Positions 16,279 through 21,283 of a stretch of 21,283 nucleotides of DNA are shown here, piece after piece. Position 1 is the first letter of the stretch. Each line of letters opens with the position of its first letter. Below the pieces are notes generated by a model. That model had not been told where the DNA came from. It did no database searches and was given only the letters and a program-made list of their open reading frames with translations. The stretch spans positions 1 to 21,283 of the forward strand of contig CAYWOD010000034.1 in assembly GCA_964459805.1 (NCBI GenBank), read 5' to 3'. This DNA is from an uncultured Pirellulales bacterium. GTDB lineage: Bacteria; Planctomycetota; Phycisphaerae; Sedimentisphaerales; Anaerobacaceae. A program made the translations under genes and the position numbers.

Positions 16279-16686
16279 CTACGAGGAGAGAAATGCTTCG
16301 ACTCTTTCTGTGAGTTTCATCAAGTCGCGGGTCTGACATTCCCAGACAATGAGAACCTTCCACCCAAGCCTTCGCAGCTTCCGCAAATTGCGCTTGTCGC
16401 GAGCAACATTACCGCTAAGCTTATTCGTCCAGTAGTCTCTGTGGCTGGCTGGCATGCGATTGCCGCGGTGACAGCGATGTTGGTGCCAAAAGCAACCATG
16501 CACGAAGATGATCTTCCTTGGGCCGGGGAAAACCAGATCTGGATTCCCCGGAAGGTCCCGGCGATGCAATCTGAATCGATGGCCGAGAGAATGCGCCAAC
16601 TTGCGGACGACCATCTCGGGTTCCGTGTCTTCAGAACGGACCTTTCCCATAATAAGTCGGCGCTTCTCAGGAGTTACGGTGTCCAA
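16279..16686 (-). CDS. vsr: Very-short-patch-repair (Vsr) T:G mismatch endonuclease
   Basis: 135 aa. It has diagnostic Vsr blocks: TEPEMVVRKLAHSLGHRFRLHRRDLPGNPDLVFP, IIFVHGCFWHQHRC and WKVLIVWEC. The track start is TTG at 16686. An in-frame ATG at 16650 is an alternative. It lies 4 nt downstream of the preceding gene's stop. Confidence 0.85.
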   Translation of the reverse strand: MDTVTPEKRRLIMGKVRSEDTEPEMVVRKLAHSLGHRFRLHRRDLPGNPDLVFPGPRKIIFVHGCFWHQHRCHRGNRMPASHRDYWTNKLSGNVARDKRNLRKLRRLGWKVLIVWECQTRDLMKLTERVEAFLSS

Positions 16687-16690
16687 AACC

Positions 16691-17671
16691 CTAATCCTCT
16701 GCTGATTTCAGTGCCGCTGGAAGTTCTATTAGGAGCGAATCATCCGTCTCAACTTCCGCAACTCGGCGATTGTATTCTTGAAGGAGACCGGCCAGCTGCG
16801 CGGCGAACTTCGCTGGAGCGAACTCTGCGAGTTCGGACAGATTCTGACCAACAAAAGATTCCAAAGACTCGGCAACAACTTTACTTTGGAGGCTTTCAGT
16901 TTCCAACAATGCGCGTGCTGCTGTGAGTTTGGAATCCACGACCAAAACTACTGCGGACAAACCGTCTTTTACATTTTGAGCACATCGCTTGACATGCCCC
17001 ATGTTTGGCGCTACAGTCACATGGAAGGCTGTGTTCCCAACGTGGTAGTCTCCCGCCCTTCCAGATTGCTCGTCGGCCGCACTGTACGAAGAGTTCCCAA
17101 CTGTAAGGTGAGGGAAGCGGATTGCGAGCTTAGCGCCAACCAGGTGCTGTGCCACGGGGCCTCCCTGGTTGCGCTGCTGTGCCGCAGCCAATATGTCCGC
17201 TATAACGTTGCGTGGCGGTTTGGAGCGATCGAAGGCAAAGCACACTCTTTCGAGGGCGTAGTATGCGTCAAGCGACTCGACAAGAAAACCCTGGAACTCG
17301 TCGAGCAACCGCACACGGTCTGTTTTCGAAAGGGCCGCGAAACCCGCCTGAGACAACGATTCAAGCAGTAATCGAATCGCACGGTTATTTCCTCGGTTGG
17401 TTCTGCCCCCCTCGCTCGGGAACTGGCGCGATTCGCCAAACCGGCGCAATATCTTTCTCAGTGAAGAAAGGTTTAAGCCCGCTATCTGTGCGCCGCCTTC
17501 AGCAAGATGCCCCTCGATGCTCAGTTCACACTTGGTGCGAAGGCGCTCAAGCACGACCAAGGCTGCTGCAACAGCACCTTTGGCGGGTCTTCCTCCGTAG
17601 CGCTTCATTGGCCTAAGGGTGCTATACCAAGATTGAAAGTTCTTTCTTATTTGGGCATCGGCATCAGTCAT
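16691..17671 (-). CDS. Candidate Type II restriction endonuclease (no family assignable from sequence alone)
   Basis: The track ORF is 16691..17776. I prefer the ATG at 17671 (MTDADAQIRKNF...) because it overlaps the MTase stop in an ATGACTGA arrangement, which implies translational coupling. The ~326-aa protein sits between a C5-MTase and vsr. That position is held by the REase in M-R-V systems such as HpaII. A possible D...K catalytic segment reads GDYHVGNTAFHVTVAPNMGHVKR. Confidence 0.5.
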   Translation of the reverse strand: MTDADAQIRKNFQSWYSTLRPMKRYGGRPAKGAVAAALVVLERLRTKCELSIEGHLAEGGAQIAGLNLSSLRKILRRFGESRQFPSEGGRTNRGNNRAIRLLLESLSQAGFAALSKTDRVRLLDEFQGFLVESLDAYYALERVCFAFDRSKPPRNVIADILAAAQQRNQGGPVAQHLVGAKLAIRFPHLTVGNSSYSAADEQSGRAGDYHVGNTAFHVTVAPNMGHVKRCAQNVKDGLSAVVLVVDSKLTAARALLETESLQSKVVAESLESFVGQNLSELAEFAPAKFAAQLAGLLQEYNRRVAEVETDDSLLIELPAALKSAED

Positions 17672-19160
17672 TTTTGGCGTCTCCCAACAAACGTGGCTGG
17701 TTTGCCGCCGCAACCAGCAGATCGAGGTAGTTCTCGGCAATCCAGGTAAGAGCCGGAACGCAGACGGCATCACCAAAACCGAACAGGGCCTGATTCAGCT
17801 TTGCTTTGATGGTGAAATCGTCAGCGCCCATAAGACGCGCGCATTCACGCGGCGTCAGGAGGCGCGCAGCATACGTGCCAAATCCCGCCTTGAACAGTAT
17901 TTGGCGCCCACTGCCGCCTTTTGGGGTGCGTAGACATCCAGCAAGCCCATCAGATCGAAGTTCGGCCATAGAGCGTTTATGCCCTTCTGGTTGGCGGCGG
18001 ACTCTTCGGAAGATCGTCCCGTAGCACCAGTCTTCTTGAGCCATCCAAGCTTTTGCAATCGCCTGGTGGCGAGCGCTCATCTGATTGTAGAGATATTCTC
18101 TTCTTTCCTTTGACCACCATTCGGGGGCACTCTCATCCAAATCGTCGAGGATTTCCGATAGATACAGTCGAGAATAGAGAGGGGGTTCCGGGAGTCCTCG
18201 CAAAGACCACCGGATGTCAGGATGCGACGTTATGAATTCTACGATCGCCGGCGGCCTCGTTCGGCAAGGCACTGCCTCGCCCACATAGCTGGTGCGTTCG
18301 CAATCAAGCATCGAAGCCACCACAAACAATCTGGGACGGCTCTGGGGAACAAACCATTTCGCGTCCAATATCAACGGATCTACGGAATAGCCAAGTTCAT
18401 TCAATTCGAGCATTGCCTGATGAAAATCGTTTCCCCGGTGAGAGGTCAGAAAAGCTGTAACGTTCTCAAGAAGAACCAAGGGCGGCCGACGTTTCCCCAT
18501 CTCTTTGAGTACGCGCACAAAGCCAAAAAAGGATGAAGACTGTCCCCGATTAAGGCCTTTTCTTCCACCGGCTAAAGAGAGGTCTGTGCAGGGAAAGGAT
18601 GCTGTCGCCAGCGTCGCTCCCGGGATTGCCCCAGCGTCAACCTTGTGAATGTCAGAGAGTTCAAAATGTATGTCAGCATCTTGAAAATGCGCGTCATACA
18701 TTTCCCTTTTCTGCGGATCGATATCATTTGCGTACAGCAGTTGCCATCCTCTCTTTTCAAGTCCGAGGCGCACCAAGCCTATTCCTGCGAAGAACTCCAG
18801 GAAAGTCTGGTCAGGTCGCCGGCGCGATGCCTCTTGAATCCCGAGCCTGTACACTCTCTCATTCACGCGCTCAAGAGTCAGAAGGTCCCCCGCTGAGAGG
18901 TTGTGCGAGCGTACAAAATCCTTCACCCAAGCACGTTCCCTGAAAAGCCAGCGCGGCCTCCCCGTACTTCTATCCCTTGGAATATCTGTCCTGACTGGGT
19001 GGGGAAGTCCGTCGGCTACGATCATAACCTGCTTGCCCGATTGAGCTTTTGTTGAGCCCCCGATCGCATCTTTTGGGAAAAACCCTGGTCCACACGGCGC
19101 AATATTGAGATTGCCGTGCTTTTCAGCTGCCGCCGTTAGTTTGATCACGCATGATTCCAT
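17664..19160 (-). CDS. DNA (cytosine-5)-methyltransferase with N-terminal B3/EcoRII-N-like DNA-binding domain
   Basis: The track ORF begins at a TTG at 19316 inside an AT-rich stretch. I prefer the ATG at 19160 (MESCVIKL...) because AAGGAG lies ~11 nt upstream. C5-MTase motifs are present: I FLEFFAGIGL, IV SFPCTDLSLAG, VI LLENV, VIII QSRPR, X GDAVCVP. Residues ~5-115 match the B3 pseudobarrel signature: KLTAAAEKHGNLNI..FFP ... RWLFRERAWVKDFVRSHNLSAGDLLTLER (compare plant RAV1 WRFRYSYW...FVKEKNLRAGDVVSFER). Confidence 0.82.
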   Translation of the reverse strand: MESCVIKLTAAAEKHGNLNIAPCGPGFFPKDAIGGSTKAQSGKQVMIVADGLPHPVRTDIPRDRSTGRPRWLFRERAWVKDFVRSHNLSAGDLLTLERVNERVYRLGIQEASRRRPDQTFLEFFAGIGLVRLGLEKRGWQLLYANDIDPQKREMYDAHFQDADIHFELSDIHKVDAGAIPGATLATASFPCTDLSLAGGRKGLNRGQSSSFFGFVRVLKEMGKRRPPLVLLENVTAFLTSHRGNDFHQAMLELNELGYSVDPLILDAKWFVPQSRPRLFVVASMLDCERTSYVGEAVPCRTRPPAIVEFITSHPDIRWSLRGLPEPPLYSRLYLSEILDDLDESAPEWWSKERREYLYNQMSARHQAIAKAWMAQEDWCYGTIFRRVRRQPEGHKRSMAELRSDGLAGCLRTPKGGSGRQILFKAGFGTYAARLLTPRECARLMGADDFTIKAKLNQALFGFGDAVCVPALTWIAENYLDLLVAAANQPRLLGDAKND

Positions 19161-19459
19161 TTGCAGTAGAACTCCTTTTCGTAAGATGATTATATCACTT
19201 TTTTGGGTAATCCACAAATTTCTTTGAGTTAAAATCTGAAAACAAGAAGATGCCAGTGCAATCACGACAGTGTCGAAACAACAGAAGGGATTTTTTGCTT
19301 GACTTGAGCGGATCAATGGCGAAAATTGGGGTCCGAAGCTCGGCAGCCCCGTAAGGCTGCGTTTATCAGAATAGAAACCGAATTCTTAAACTCTTTGGGT
19401 CCCAAAGTGCGCTGCTGTGCGTTTAGAGGGGCTCTCAAGACAACAAGGGAGATACGACC

Positions 19460-20806
19460 ATGTCCATAGACCGTCGCACTTTTCTAAAAGGCTCAATAGC
19501 GTCCGGCTTGGCGCTGAGTTTCCCCAACATCGTCACAGCCGCCCGGGCAAAAACATATCGCACGGCTTTAATCGGCAGCGGATGGTGGGGAATGAACATC
19601 ACCGGAGAAGCGATTGCCTCGGGCCGCTGCAAAATCGTCGCAATGTGCGATGTTGACGACCACCAGCTGAACCCCGCCGTCGAAAAGGTCAAGGGCCTTA
19701 CCGGTGACACACCCAAGAAGTACAAAGACTTCCGAGAGCTTCTCCAAAAGGAAAAGCCCGATATCGCAATCGTGGCTACGCCCGACCACTGGCATCCTTT
19801 GTGTGCCATCGCCGCAGTCAAGGCCGGCGCGCACGTCTATGTGGAAAAGCCCATCGGCCATACCATCGCCGAGGGCCGCGCAATGGTAAATGCCGCCCGC
19901 GCCGCCAATCGCGTCGTCCAGGTCGGGACCCATCGGCGGATTTCACCGCACTGTATCTCCGGCAGGAAGTTCATCCGGCAAGGCCACGCCGGCAAGATCG
20001 GCTCGGTCCGAGCATTCGTTCTTTACGGCGGCGGACCGGAAAAGCCTAAGAAGAATATGGAGCCGCCGAAAGGCCTGGACTGGAATATGTGGTGCGGCCC
20101 GGCGCCGCTGCGCCCATTCAACGGCAACATCGATAATCCCTGGGGCGGCGGAATCCACCCGAGAGGGTTTCGTCAGTACCTCGACTACGCCAACGGCACA
20201 CTCGGCGACTGGGGCGTGCACTGGGTGGACCAGATCCTCTGGATTATGGAAGAGAAATGGCCCAAAACCGTATATTCGACCGGCGGACGACCGATCAAGG
20301 GACCGCCAATACTCACCGCAGAAGAGCAGACCAGCGACGCGCCGGACCACCAGATCGCAACATACGAATTCGAGAAATTCACCGCGCACTGGGAGCACCG
20401 TAACTTCGCAGGCAACACAGCCGAGAAAGCCGAAAACGTCGGCTGCTACTTCTACGGAACCAAAGGCACCTTCCACATGGGCTGGCAAAGGGGCTGGACC
20501 TTCTACCCACTCGCCAAAGGACAAAAGGAGATTCACGAGGAACCCCGGTTGAACGACCCGGACAGCCAGAACATCAAGGAGCTGTGGGCCGACTTCCTCA
20601 ACGCAATCGAGACCGGCAAACGCCCCGTCTGCGACATCGAGCTAATCCATCGCTCGACGAATATGAGCCTGTTAGGAATGCTTTCGTACAAGCTCGGCCG
20701 AAGCGTAAAGTGGGACGGCGAAAAAGAGACAATCGTCGGCGACAAACCGGCCAACAAACTCCTCCGCCGTAAGTACCGCAAGCCATGGGTCTATCCCAAG
20801 GCTTGA
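19460..20806 (+). CDS. Gfo/Idh/MocA-family oxidoreductase (Tat-secreted)
   Basis: 448 aa. A Tat signal MSIDRRTFLKGSIASGLALSFPNIVTAARA is present. The Rossmann start is YRTALIGSGWWG. The conserved EKP motif reads VYVEKPIGHT. AAGGGAG lies 8 nt upstream of the ATG. Confidence 0.9.
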   Translation: MSIDRRTFLKGSIASGLALSFPNIVTAARAKTYRTALIGSGWWGMNITGEAIASGRCKIVAMCDVDDHQLNPAVEKVKGLTGDTPKKYKDFRELLQKEKPDIAIVATPDHWHPLCAIAAVKAGAHVYVEKPIGHTIAEGRAMVNAARAANRVVQVGTHRRISPHCISGRKFIRQGHAGKIGSVRAFVLYGGGPEKPKKNMEPPKGLDWNMWCGPAPLRPFNGNIDNPWGGGIHPRGFRQYLDYANGTLGDWGVHWVDQILWIMEEKWPKTVYSTGGRPIKGPPILTAEEQTSDAPDHQIATYEFEKFTAHWEHRNFAGNTAEKAENVGCYFYGTKGTFHMGWQRGWTFYPLAKGQKEIHEEPRLNDPDSQNIKELWADFLNAIETGKRPVCDIELIHRSTNMSLLGMLSYKLGRSVKWDGEKETIVGDKPANKLLRRKYRKPWVYPKA

Positions 20807-20859
20807 TAAAACAGGAGTAACCGTTCACAGGGTGATATGTTGAATTTTGCCCGTTTTTC

Positions 20860-21147
20860 GTCATTGCGAACACCTCACCTGATTCTCAGCAGGCATACAG
20901 AGAAGAAAGTAGCCCACGCACGTCATTGCGAAGGAGCGCAGCGACTGCGGCAATCTCAACCCTTACACTGCAAGAACCGGCTATTTTCTTAGGAGGAGCG
21001 AAGCCCGTTTTTTGTCATTGCGAGGAGCGAAGCGACGAAGCAATCTCGAAGTCTGGGATTGCTTCGCTGCGCTCGCAACAGGCTCCGCAATCTCGATTTT
21101 CGAGTGTTTGAGATTGCCACGGCCTTTGAAAAAGGCCTCGCAATGAC
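20860..21147. repeat. Cluster of at least six REP-like repeat copies in alternating orientation
   Basis: Copies: 20860-20896 (37-bp subfamily); 20922-20957 GTCATTGCGAAGGAGCGCAGCGACTGCGGCAATCTC; 21014-21047 GTCATTGCGAGGAGCGAAGCGACGAAGCAATCTC; 21056-21080 inverted partial copy; 21083-21118 GCAATCTCGA...TTGAGATTGC hairpin; 21110-21147 GAGATTGCCACGGCCTTTgaaAAAGGCCTCGCAATGAC. This last one is an inverted copy with its own GGCCTTT/AAAGGCC core hairpin. The cluster generates spurious ORFs 20926..21111(+) and 21015..21197(-). Confidence 0.75.
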
Positions 21148-21283
21148 ACAGAAACGCAATTTATACCCCCTGAACGGTTACAAACGTACTTGATCATCGA
21201 CCCACAACCATTCTCGTGGTAAAAGGCTATGCCTTAATATTAGGTACTCACTCATGATATTGGTAAGGAATAACAACAAAATT

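What the first reader, a model, noticed from the sequence alone, without database searches (positions are those of the whole stretch)
17664..19160. C5-cytosine methyltransferase fused to an N-terminal B3/EcoRII-N-like DNA-binding domain
The ~120 residues before MTase motif I match the B3 pseudobarrel signature very well: W-x-F-R-x-x-x-W ... F-V-x-x-x-N-L-x-A-G-D-x-L-x-L-E-R, plus the upstream KLT..(K)HGNL.I...FFP block. That fold is known in bacteria from the effector/recognition domains of REases such as EcoRII (N-terminal) and BfiI (C-terminal). Here it sits on the methyltransferase of an M-R-V operon instead. A B3::Dcm fusion is, to my knowledge, at most rarely described. It suggests a second sequence reader attached to the modification enzyme. 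That could tether the enzyme or sense its site. The EcoRII parallel (CCWGG, Dcm, Vsr) is tempting but unproven.
Basis: partly seen in the sequence, partly recalled or inferred. Interest (0 to 1): 0.72.

Follow-up and report, generated by a model that had tools for sequence, protein, structure and literature searches.

The report
B3-fold head on restriction-modification methyltransferases
The cytosine methyltransferase of a three-gene restriction-modification operon carries an N-terminal domain of about 110 residues with the B3/EcoRII-N DNA-binding fold; the same domain sits on methyltransferases of four unrelated classes in Planctomycetota, so it probably reads something other than each enzyme's own target site.

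Summary

Translation from ATG 19160 is supported by a Shine-Dalgarno site, an extended -10 promoter, and protein-level conservation with free synonymous variation.

The rest of the protein is an intact C5 methyltransferase. It is coupled by an 8-nt overlap to a DUF4928 protein that matches a Type II restriction-enzyme model, and Vsr follows.

The new result is that this domain defines an apparently undescribed family. In 130 loci, with every genome hit from Planctomycetota, it sits at residue 1 of C5, N4/N6 (PF01555), D12 and Eco57I-type methyltransferases. These are followed by many different restriction enzymes. Its putative DNA-contact arms are nearly invariant throughout, and orthologous methyltransferases often lack it. 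It is therefore an accessory head that does not depend on the enzyme's target, not a second reader of that target.

I found no shared operator. Whether the domain anchors the enzyme on DNA or represses its own promoter remains open.

The parts
19212..19217 (-). -35-like hexamer TTGTGG of the methyltransferase promoter
   Evidence: Read. It lies 17 nt upstream of the -10 element. The homologous element in syntenic orthologues L056, L057 and L060 is TTGTTG. It matches the consensus at only 3 of 6 positions, so the generic scan did not call it.
19205..19210 (-). TTACCC motif in the promoter spacer (candidate site, unproven)
   Evidence: In the forward orientation, TTACCC occurs 11 times in the 120 nt upstream of the 53 related genes, against 1.44 expected. 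It usually abuts the -35 element. It may be only a -35 variant or flank.
19189..19197 (-). Extended -10 element TGaTATAAT
   Evidence: Read. It is conserved as TGTTATAAT in orthologues. Of 66 non-redundant related genes, 89% have a sigma-70-type match of at least 9 of 12 within 130 nt, against 14% of shuffles and 39% of control ORFs.
19172..19177 (-). Shine-Dalgarno site AAGGAG, 11 nt before the ATG
   Evidence: Read. AAGGAG is present in 27 of 41 non-redundant upstream regions, against 0.8 expected.
18837..19160 (-). N-terminal B3-type DNA-binding pseudobarrel (residues 1-108). The putative N-arm is residues 10-20 (AAAEKHGNLNI). The putative C-arm is residues 56-76 (VRTDIPRDRSTGRPRWLFRER).
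18807..18836 (-). Short linker (residues 109-118, QEASRRRPDQ)
   Evidence: In the full-length model, pLDDT dips to 73 for residues 111-120. Linkers in relatives are 10-60 residues long and variable.
17664..18806 (-). C5-cytosine DNA methyltransferase catalytic and target-recognition part (residues 119-498, plus stop). Motif I is FLEFFAGIG, motif IV is FPC (Cys191), motif VI is ENV and motif VIII is QSRPR.
   Evidence: PF00145 1.8e-46, TIGR00675 1e-45, PADLOC MTase_II 5e-108. The motif residues are invariant in 45 orthologues. The fold matches M.HhaI at 7e-22.
16691..17671 (-). Restriction endonuclease candidate (DUF4928, 326 aa). Its ATG overlaps the end of the methyltransferase gene by 8 nt.
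   Evidence: PF16280 3e-80. PADLOC REase_II PDLC03543 7.9e-50. Orthologues are called at 326 aa with the same overlap.
16279..16686 (-). Vsr very-short-patch repair endonuclease (135 aa from TTG 16686, 4 nt after the restriction enzyme's stop codon)
   Evidence: PF03852 4e-29 and TIGR00632 7.6e-42, both matching from residue 1 of the TTG-start form.

Best explanation
Shown:
- The gene encodes an intact Type II C5-cytosine methyltransferase. Its first roughly 108 residues form an accessory B3-type DNA-binding pseudobarrel, joined to the catalytic part by a short linker.
- It is the first gene of a promoter-proximal M-R-Vsr operon, and the restriction gene is translationally coupled to it.
- The head domain belongs to a family that appears to be undescribed. 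In Planctomycetota this family has been joined to the extreme N-terminus of Type II methyltransferases of at least four classes.

Inferred: the two loops that contact bases in known B3-like domains (N-arm and C-arm) are almost invariant whatever methyltransferase and restriction enzyme follow. The head therefore does not read the system's target site. It binds one constant ligand, most likely DNA, either a fixed short word or DNA in general.

Proposed mechanism (my best guess, not shown): the head acts as a DNA anchor. It keeps the methyltransferase on the chromosome and speeds its one-dimensional search, so that modification stays ahead of the co-expressed restriction enzyme.
For: - Fold.
- Intact methyltransferase and operon.
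- Family size: 616 representative clusters at E<=1e-3 and 277 at E<=1e-10. There are 44 genome loci, all in Planctomycetota MAGs, and 194 metagenome stretches.
- Partners in 130 loci: 88 PF01555-type, 25 C5, 4 D12 and 2 Eco57I/N6. The head always starts at residue 1.
- Of 39 downstream neighbours, many match different REBASE-derived REase_II models; at least 12 models are represented.
- The arms AAxK(H/Y)GNLN(I/L) and TDIPxDxxTG(R/K)PRWxFRxR are nearly invariant across all partners.
- The head is accessory. About 70 of the 120 closest methyltransferase orthologues lack it and carry only a 5-45-residue leader.
- Linkers vary in length.
- No shared cis-element was found upstream or inside the coding region. 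That fits an anchor better than an operator-bound repressor.
- Recent 5'-end swaps between different methyltransferase classes show the head is portable: 94% identity over -231..+86 (L068/L079), 87% over -352..+227 (L022/L131) and 85% over -112..+85 (L021/L043).
Against: - DNA binding is inferred from the fold only; nothing here shows it.
- Invariant Asn, His, Asp and Thr residues in the arms look more like base-specific readout than backbone-only contact. That would call for a fixed site, and I could not identify one.
- The phylum-restricted distribution is not explained by a generic anchor.
- These genes carry unusually strong promoters, which a simple anchor does not require and which fits autoregulation.
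- The one clearly head-less orthologue whose locus I could read (L050) also lacks the restriction gene. This hints at a role tied to R-M control, but it is a single case.
Confidence: 0.4

Rival explanations
1. SsoII/Ecl18kI/EcoRII-type dual-function methyltransferase. The B3 head binds the gene's own promoter and represses transcription of the M-R-V operon once enough enzyme has accumulated. It would do the job that an N-terminal helix-turn-helix does in M.SsoII.
For: - Fused repressor domains on C5 methyltransferases are an established way of controlling R-M systems (PMC12707154 section 11; PMC3978073).
- These genes have their own near-consensus promoters and short leaders far more often than controls: 89% against 39% reach at least 9 of 12.
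- The restriction gene is translationally coupled, so the promoter sets the level of both enzymes.
- Some recent swaps carry the promoter and head together.
- TTACCC is enriched next to the -35 element and lies in the window's promoter spacer.
- Stand-alone or truncated heads persist in front of other genes.
Against: - The arms are nearly invariant, so one operator should recur. Yet position-specific information outside -35, -10 and the Shine-Dalgarno site is low in 59 anchored promoters. K-mer enrichment finds only core promoter words plus TTACCC, in 11 of 53 loci.
- DNA homology between loci with different methyltransferase classes starts at a median of -2. Only 8% of pairs reach -30, so the promoter is not generally co-inherited.
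- There is no synonymous-site suppression inside the domain's coding region.
- Several systems in one genome share nearly the same head. They would cross-repress one another.
Confidence: 0.25
2. One reading: the head is a second reader of the system's own recognition sequence, as EcoRII-N and BfiI-C are for their nucleases. It would sense or pre-bind the target site.
For: In every characterised bacterial case (EcoRII, BfiI, NgoAVII, UbaLAI, LlaJI.R1) the B3-like domain reads the system's target (PMC3973309). The C-arm is long, about 21 residues, as in sequence-specific B3 domains.
Against: - Heads 70-84% identical, with the same arm residues, sit on unrelated methyltransferase classes that have different restriction-enzyme families.
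- One methyltransferase orthogroup carries two head subtypes or none.
- The (D/E)xR motif that reads TGG in EcoRII-N and BfiI-C is not present in the same register (from the sequence).
Confidence: 0.07
3. The head does not bind double-stranded DNA in a functional sense. It could be a protein-protein or RNA-binding module, for example for localisation, oligomerisation or partner binding, or a decaying relic.
For: No cis-element was found. The distribution is lineage-restricted. Truncated remnants are frequent.
Against: - Strong purifying selection acts on the whole domain.
- The most conserved segments coincide with the DNA-binding arms of B3 domains and are rich in Arg, Lys and Asn.
- Every solved homologue of this fold binds DNA.
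Confidence: 0.12
4. Annotation artefact: translation starts downstream, for example at ATG 19025, and the B3-like segment is not made.
For: An in-frame ATG exists at residue 46.
Against: The Shine-Dalgarno site and promoter lie in front of ATG 19160. All 130 relatives start at the same M-E/D-S. Residues 1-45 show amino-acid conservation with free synonymous change. AlphaFold2 needs residues 3-49 to complete the barrel.
Confidence: 0.02

Closest known systems
B3-like DNA-binding domains of restriction enzymes: EcoRII-N, BfiI-C, R.NgoAVII/CglI C-domain, UbaLAI-N, LlaJI.R1-N
   Different: Here the domain is attached to the methyltransferase, not the nuclease or motor. Sequence identity is only 9-15%. 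There is no hit to the EcoRII-N Pfam family. The domain is the same across systems of different specificity, so it cannot be the target reader that it is in those enzymes.
Plant B3 transcription-factor domains (FUS3, RAV1, TEM1, ARF, VRN1; Pfam PF02362)
   Different: The scores stay well below the Pfam cut-off (at most 18.5 bits against 30.1). The protein is bacterial and fused to an enzyme. Its ligand is unknown.
Dual-function C5 methyltransferases with an N-terminal repressor region (M.SsoII, M.Ecl18kI, M.EcoRII, M.MspI)
   Same: The architecture is the same: an N-terminal DNA-binding region, a flexible linker and a C5 methyltransferase of a Type II system (PMC3978073; PMC12707154). This is the most obvious functional analogue.
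   Different: Those regions are helix-turn-helix, bind a defined inverted repeat in their own promoter, and are restricted to C5 enzymes. Here the fold is B3, no operator was found, and the same head also sits on N4/N6, D12 and gamma-class enzymes.
Dcm-Vsr and M.HhaI-type C5 methyltransferases
   Same: The catalytic part has all the C5 motifs and an M.HhaI-like fold. A Vsr gene follows, as it does with E. coli Dcm.
   Different: It is not an E. coli Dcm orthologue: PRK10458 scores 82 bits against a cut-off of 710. Its specificity is unknown. A DUF4928 restriction enzyme lies between M and Vsr.

Membership tests
B3 / DNA-binding pseudobarrel fold superfamily | Seven-stranded open pseudobarrel with two short helices, superposable on solved B3-like domains | tested here: met
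Pfam B3 (PF02362) | Score at or above the curated gathering cut-off (30.1 bits) | tested here: not met
   13.7 bits for the full protein and 16.6 bits for the isolated domain. The best family member reaches E=0.0026.
Pfam EcoRII-N (PF09217) | Any profile match | tested here: not met
   Not listed at E<=1 for the window protein or for 43 family members.
B3-like DNA readers | Binds double-stranded DNA through the N-arm and C-arm cleft | not testable with these tools
   Only inference is available. The most conserved segments (residues 10-20 and 56-76) fall where the arms lie in EcoRII-N and BfiI-C.
C5-cytosine DNA methyltransferase | PF00145/TIGR00675 match with motifs I (FxGxG), IV (PC), VI (ENV), VIII (QxRxR) and X | tested here: met
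   159.5 bits against a cut-off of 22, and 156.9 bits against 100.65. F124, G126, G128, P190, C191, E232, N233, V234, Q273, R275 and R277 are invariant in 45 orthologues.
Type II restriction-modification system | A cognate restriction endonuclease gene next to the methyltransferase | tested here: met
   The DUF4928 protein matches PADLOC REase_II PDLC03543 at 7.9e-50 and overlaps the methyltransferase gene by 8 nt. Nuclease activity itself was not testable.
Vsr very-short-patch repair endonuclease | TIGR00632 or PF03852 above the cut-off | tested here: met
   142.4 bits against 97.85, and 100.6 bits against 27.
SsoII-type dual-function methyltransferase | The N-terminal region is a helix-turn-helix | tested here: not met
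   The fold is a beta-barrel of the B3 type.
SsoII-type dual-function methyltransferase | A defined operator for the N-terminal region in the gene's own promoter | tested here: inconclusive
   No inverted repeat was found in window 19100-19470. No family-wide motif appears beyond -35, -10 and the Shine-Dalgarno site. TTACCC is enriched but occurs in only 11 of 53 loci.
E. coli Dcm / EcoRII (CCWGG) system | Dcm-equivalog score, and an EcoRII-C-type nuclease partner | tested here: not met
   PRK10458 scores 82 bits against a cut-off of 710. The partner is DUF4928, not PF09019.

The most novel reading that the evidence does not exclude
A single B3-type head, with one fixed binding specificity, has been grafted onto the methyltransferases of most kinds of Type II restriction-modification system in Planctomycetota. 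It would act as a common handle linking otherwise unrelated systems in a cell, either as a shared repressor or sensor, or as an address for one DNA word or structure.

It may also be the closest bacterial sequence relative of the 'plant-specific' B3 transcription-factor domain. It gives sub-threshold PF02362 hits, and FUS3 and RAV1 are among its top structural matches, whereas EcoRII-N and BfiI-C match less well.
Probability: 0.3. Interest if true: 0.78.

Novelty: new variant of a known kind. Interest (0 to 1): 0.62.

Why it matters
- B3-like domains in bacteria are known only as the target readers of restriction nucleases and motors. DNA-binding heads on methyltransferases are known only as helix-turn-helix autorepressors on C5 enzymes.
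- Here a B3 head sits on the modification enzyme. It is shared by four methyltransferase classes and many restriction-enzyme families within one phylum. This points to a layer of R-M biology (control, or anchoring to DNA) that does not depend on target specificity and has not been studied.
- The family offers a compact domain of about 108 residues whose specificity can be measured directly.
- It also adds a large bacterial family to the question of where plant B3 domains came from.

Tried and rejected
- **Operator search.** Repeats in the window's 300-nt intergenic region showed nothing convincing. K-mer enrichment in 41 non-redundant upstream regions gave only the Shine-Dalgarno site, -35, -10 and extended -10 words, plus TTACCC. 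Information content in 59 promoters anchored on -10 and -35 showed nothing beyond core elements and a likely start-site A. Alignments of promoter classes and of syntenic orthologues added nothing. TTACCC is enriched but resembles a -35 variant or flank, and its presence does not track any head-sequence variant.
- **A claim I dropped.** I first thought the promoter, leader and head formed one co-inherited cassette. With 1297 pairs of different methyltransferase class, homology starts at a median of -2. I withdrew the general claim and kept only the few recent swaps.
- **Element hidden in the coding region.** Synonymous-site entropy is close to expectation except at codons 2-5.
- **Correction.** I took L052 for a head-less M-DUF4928-Vsr operon. 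In fact P0204 is a mis-called start, and the head lies in frame upstream.
- **Sequence-only homology to solved structures.** Results were insignificant. The first profile was contaminated by methyltransferase motif I.
- **Searches that returned nothing.** The afdb50 fold library was unavailable. No relatives were found in IMG/VR viral contigs. No Rfam family matches in the window. The domain has no PADLOC or NCBIfam hit.
- **Full-length model.** It shows both domains folded (pLDDT 86, pTM 0.82), but without PAE the inter-domain pose cannot be trusted.
Full report
**What is at the coordinates**

Translation from ATG 19160 gives 498 residues, and public gene calls carry exactly this protein on a 21283-bp contig (P0166).

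Several lines support this start:
- AAGGAG at 19177-19172 lies 11 nt upstream of the ATG.
- TTGTGG (19217-19212), 17 nt and TGaTATAAT (19197-19189) form an extended -10 promoter that sits inside the longer ORF.
- All 130 related genes collected later begin M-E/D-S at the same position.
- Codons 1-45 show strict amino-acid conservation with nearly free synonymous change. Leu18, for example, has 2.49 bits of codon entropy against 2.53 expected.

Residues 119-477 match PF00145 (1.8e-46) and TIGR00675 (1e-45). Motifs I, IV (Pro190-Cys191), VI, VIII and X are invariant in 45 orthologues, so the enzyme looks active.

**Is the N-terminal part a B3-like domain?**

By sequence alone the case is weak:
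- Pfam B3 gives E=0.06 and 13.7 bits against a cut-off of 30.1.
- A 43-member profile of the domain finds TEM1-B3 (E=0.19) and RAV1-B3 (E=0.63) as its best PDB sequences, through the W..FV..NL.AGD..v.ER block.
- 15 of 43 family members give sub-threshold B3 hits, and none hits EcoRII-N.

**The operon**

The next gene (16691-17671, 326 aa) is DUF4928 (3e-80). It matches a REBASE-derived PADLOC model for Type II restriction enzymes (PDLC03543, 7.9e-50). Its ATG overlaps the last codons of the methyltransferase gene by 8 nt, as in its orthologues.

Vsr follows, starting 4 nt after the restriction gene's stop codon from TTG 16686. 'M-R-V operon' is therefore right.

The operon lies in a stretch of slightly lower G+C (0.50-0.55 against 0.57-0.60). 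It is flanked by a divergent GFO/IDH/MocA oxidoreductase gene and a DUF1080-type gene, and the same flank is found in orthologue L056.

**The domain defines a large family on many methyltransferases**

A search with residues 1-118 found conserved relatives. A profile search over 1.84 billion representative proteins found 616 at E<=1e-3 and 277 at E<=1e-10. That profile also carried about 40 positions of methyltransferase motif I, so the weakest hits may be spurious; the listed 150 all cover the domain.

Among 59 longer members, Pfam finds:
- C5 methyltransferase in 19;
- N6_N4 (PF01555) in 19;
- D12 in 3;
- Eco57I/N6_Mtase in 1-2;
- a few ASCH, HNH and HTH partners.

A scan of one genome per species returned 44 loci, all from Planctomycetota MAGs (Pirellulales, Sedimentisphaerales, Phycisphaerae). 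Five MAGs had two copies. This scan used one peptide pattern, so it samples only the close subfamily. A metagenome scan found 194 more stretches.

In the 130 loci analysed, the domain always starts at residue 1. It is followed by PF01555-type (88), C5 (25), D12 (4) or Eco57I/N6 (2) methyltransferases; 9 loci are short or truncated. One protein (L038, 944 aa) has the head followed by both C5 and Eco57I-type modules.

The gene immediately downstream is tightly linked. In most cases it matches one of at least 12 different Type II restriction-enzyme models. These are ordinary Type II systems of diverse specificity.

More distant members occur elsewhere, for example as a stand-alone protein in a helicase/ATPase operon on a Bradyrhizobium plasmid. 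None was found in IMG/VR viral contigs.

**What the head cannot be**

In EcoRII-N and BfiI-C, base contacts come from an N-arm (helix plus strand) and a C-arm (beta-hairpin) (PMC3973309). The corresponding segments here are AAxK(H/Y)GNLN(I/L) and TDIPxDxxTG(R/K)PRWxFRxR. They are the most conserved parts of the family and are almost invariant regardless of methyltransferase class.

Three observations bear on this:
- Heads 70-84% identical sit on different classes.
- Among the window's 120 closest methyltransferase orthologues, the head is this subtype in 8, a second subtype about 35% identical (RLIxVTAGNLRNxHIYITGHHDFFP) in about 40, and absent in about 70. Those 70 carry only a short leader.
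- One 'head-less' call, P0204, was an annotation error, because the head lies in frame upstream.

This double dissociation argues that the head does not read the system's own target. It is accessory and independent of the target.

**Portability**

Some pairs of loci with unrelated methyltransferase cores share nearly identical 5' ends:
- L068 (C5) and L079 (PF01555): 94% over -231..+86.
- L022 (C5) and L131 (PF01555): 87% over -352..+227.
- L021 (D12) and L043 (C5): 85% over -112..+85.
- L030 and L049, two systems in one MAG: 82% over -106..+340.

These look like recent recombination events in which the head's coding sequence supplied the homology. I first read this as a co-inherited promoter-plus-head cassette. 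Over all 1297 pairs of different class, however, homology begins at a median of -2, and only 8% of pairs reach -30. The promoter is therefore not generally conserved with the head.

**Mechanism: what was tested**

The obvious analogue is the N-terminal repressor region of M.SsoII, M.Ecl18kI and M.EcoRII (PMC12707154; PMC3978073).

In its favour, these genes almost always carry their own strong sigma-70-type promoter and a short leader. Of 66 non-redundant upstream regions, 89% reach at least 9 of 12, against 14% of shuffles and 39% of control ORFs. The restriction gene is also translationally coupled.

Against it, an invariant DNA-binding surface predicts a recurring operator, and none was found:
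- K-mer enrichment returns only core promoter words and TTACCC, which occurs 11 times against 1.44 expected, usually abutting the -35 element. In the window it lies at 19210-19205, inside the spacer.
- Information content outside -35, -10 and the start site is low.
- No synonymous-site suppression marks a site hidden in the coding region.

A DNA anchor fits more of the data: it needs no cis-element, works for any methyltransferase class, is dispensable, and tolerates variable linkers. It does not explain the strong promoters, the invariant polar and acidic arm residues, or the restriction to one phylum.

My estimates are anchor about 0.4, autorepressor about 0.25, own-site reader about 0.07, non-DNA or relic about 0.12, and mis-annotated start about 0.02. 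The remainder is unassigned.

**Comparison and novelty**

The fold is that of the B3-like readers of EcoRII, BfiI, NgoAVII/CglI, UbaLAI and LlaJI.R1, and of plant B3 factors. The architecture resembles SsoII-type dual-function methyltransferases. The catalytic part is an M.HhaI-like C5 enzyme.

What differs is the combination:
- a B3 head on the modification enzyme;
- the same head on four methyltransferase classes;
- a phylum-restricted distribution;
- no link to target specificity.

Four literature searches found no description of this combination. The Pfam, NCBIfam and PADLOC libraries have no model for the domain. I class it as a new variant of a known kind.

Noticed in passing
window 20849-21153: A cluster of short repeats. 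GCCCGTTTTT(C/T)GTCATTGCGA occurs twice (20849 and 21003). CGTCATTGCGA(A/G) occurs three times and GAGGAGCGAAGC three times. An inverted copy lies at 21136-21153. This is a small intergenic repeat element downstream of the oxidoreductase gene. It has no Rfam match.
   Followed up: partly
window 16691-17671 (-): DUF4928, a Pfam domain of unknown function, matches a REBASE-derived Type II restriction-enzyme model (PADLOC PDLC03543, 7.9e-50). It recurs as M-DUF4928-Vsr in relatives. No solved structure matches by sequence. Its fold and specificity are unknown.
   Followed up: partly
L001:909-3327 (also L002, L003): A degraded relative: the head plus a C5 methyltransferase truncated just after motif IV (206 aa), then an oppositely oriented HNH_2 gene, a 95-aa EcoRII-C fragment and an intact Vsr. 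It looks like an EcoRII-type system disrupted by an insertion. The same arrangement appears in three samples.
   Followed up: no
L005:3172-4620: The head is fused to only about 70 residues of an N4/N6 methyltransferase (189 aa in total). A PLDc_2 (phospholipase-D family) protein of 286 aa follows. This recalls the PLD nuclease plus B3 pairing of BfiI and NgoAVII, here split over two genes.
   Followed up: no
L068 vs L079/L077; L021 vs L043: Recombination breakpoints fall inside the head's coding region, near +86. Upstream DNA plus the first 86 nt are 85-94% identical, while the rest of the gene encodes a different methyltransferase class.
   Followed up: partly
L050:4001-5654: The only truly head-less orthologue whose locus could be read is an M-Vsr pair without the DUF4928 restriction gene. 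It starts 50 nt after a UDP-glucose dehydrogenase gene. Whether loss of the head goes with loss of the restriction gene could not be tested further.
   Followed up: no
P0205-P0284 (head-less orthologues): Many head-less orthologues share a short basic N-terminal leader, roughly KNGQLxLxW(K/R)...GPR, immediately before motif I. Its role is unknown.
   Followed up: no
L055:3896-4324 (Bradyrhizobium barranii plasmid pB323S2c): A distant stand-alone member of the head family, annotated as a hypothetical protein. It lies in a co-directional gene row between a helicase-related protein and a large ATPase on a conjugative plasmid. It may be part of another defence system.
   Followed up: no
P0122, P0124 (ASCH + head); P0158 (HTH_31 + head): In other members the domain is C-terminal to an ASCH (PUA-like) domain or an Xre-type helix-turn-helix. 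In these members and in the stand-alone forms, the C-arm loop is about 7 residues shorter (TDIAGDKKIFRKR) than in the methyltransferase-fused forms.
   Followed up: no
L064:5898-6755: In one subtype-b relative, the M-DUF4928-Vsr operon is followed directly by a second methyltransferase of the N6_N4 class.
   Followed up: no
window 19158-19172 and relatives: The first codons are unusually fixed at nucleotide level: GAA in 51 of 55 Glu2 codons, Ser3 always TCN, and GTA in 42 of 54 Val5 codons. The 2-3 bases before the ATG are purines. This is probably a translation-initiation constraint, but a regulatory site is not excluded.
   Followed up: partly
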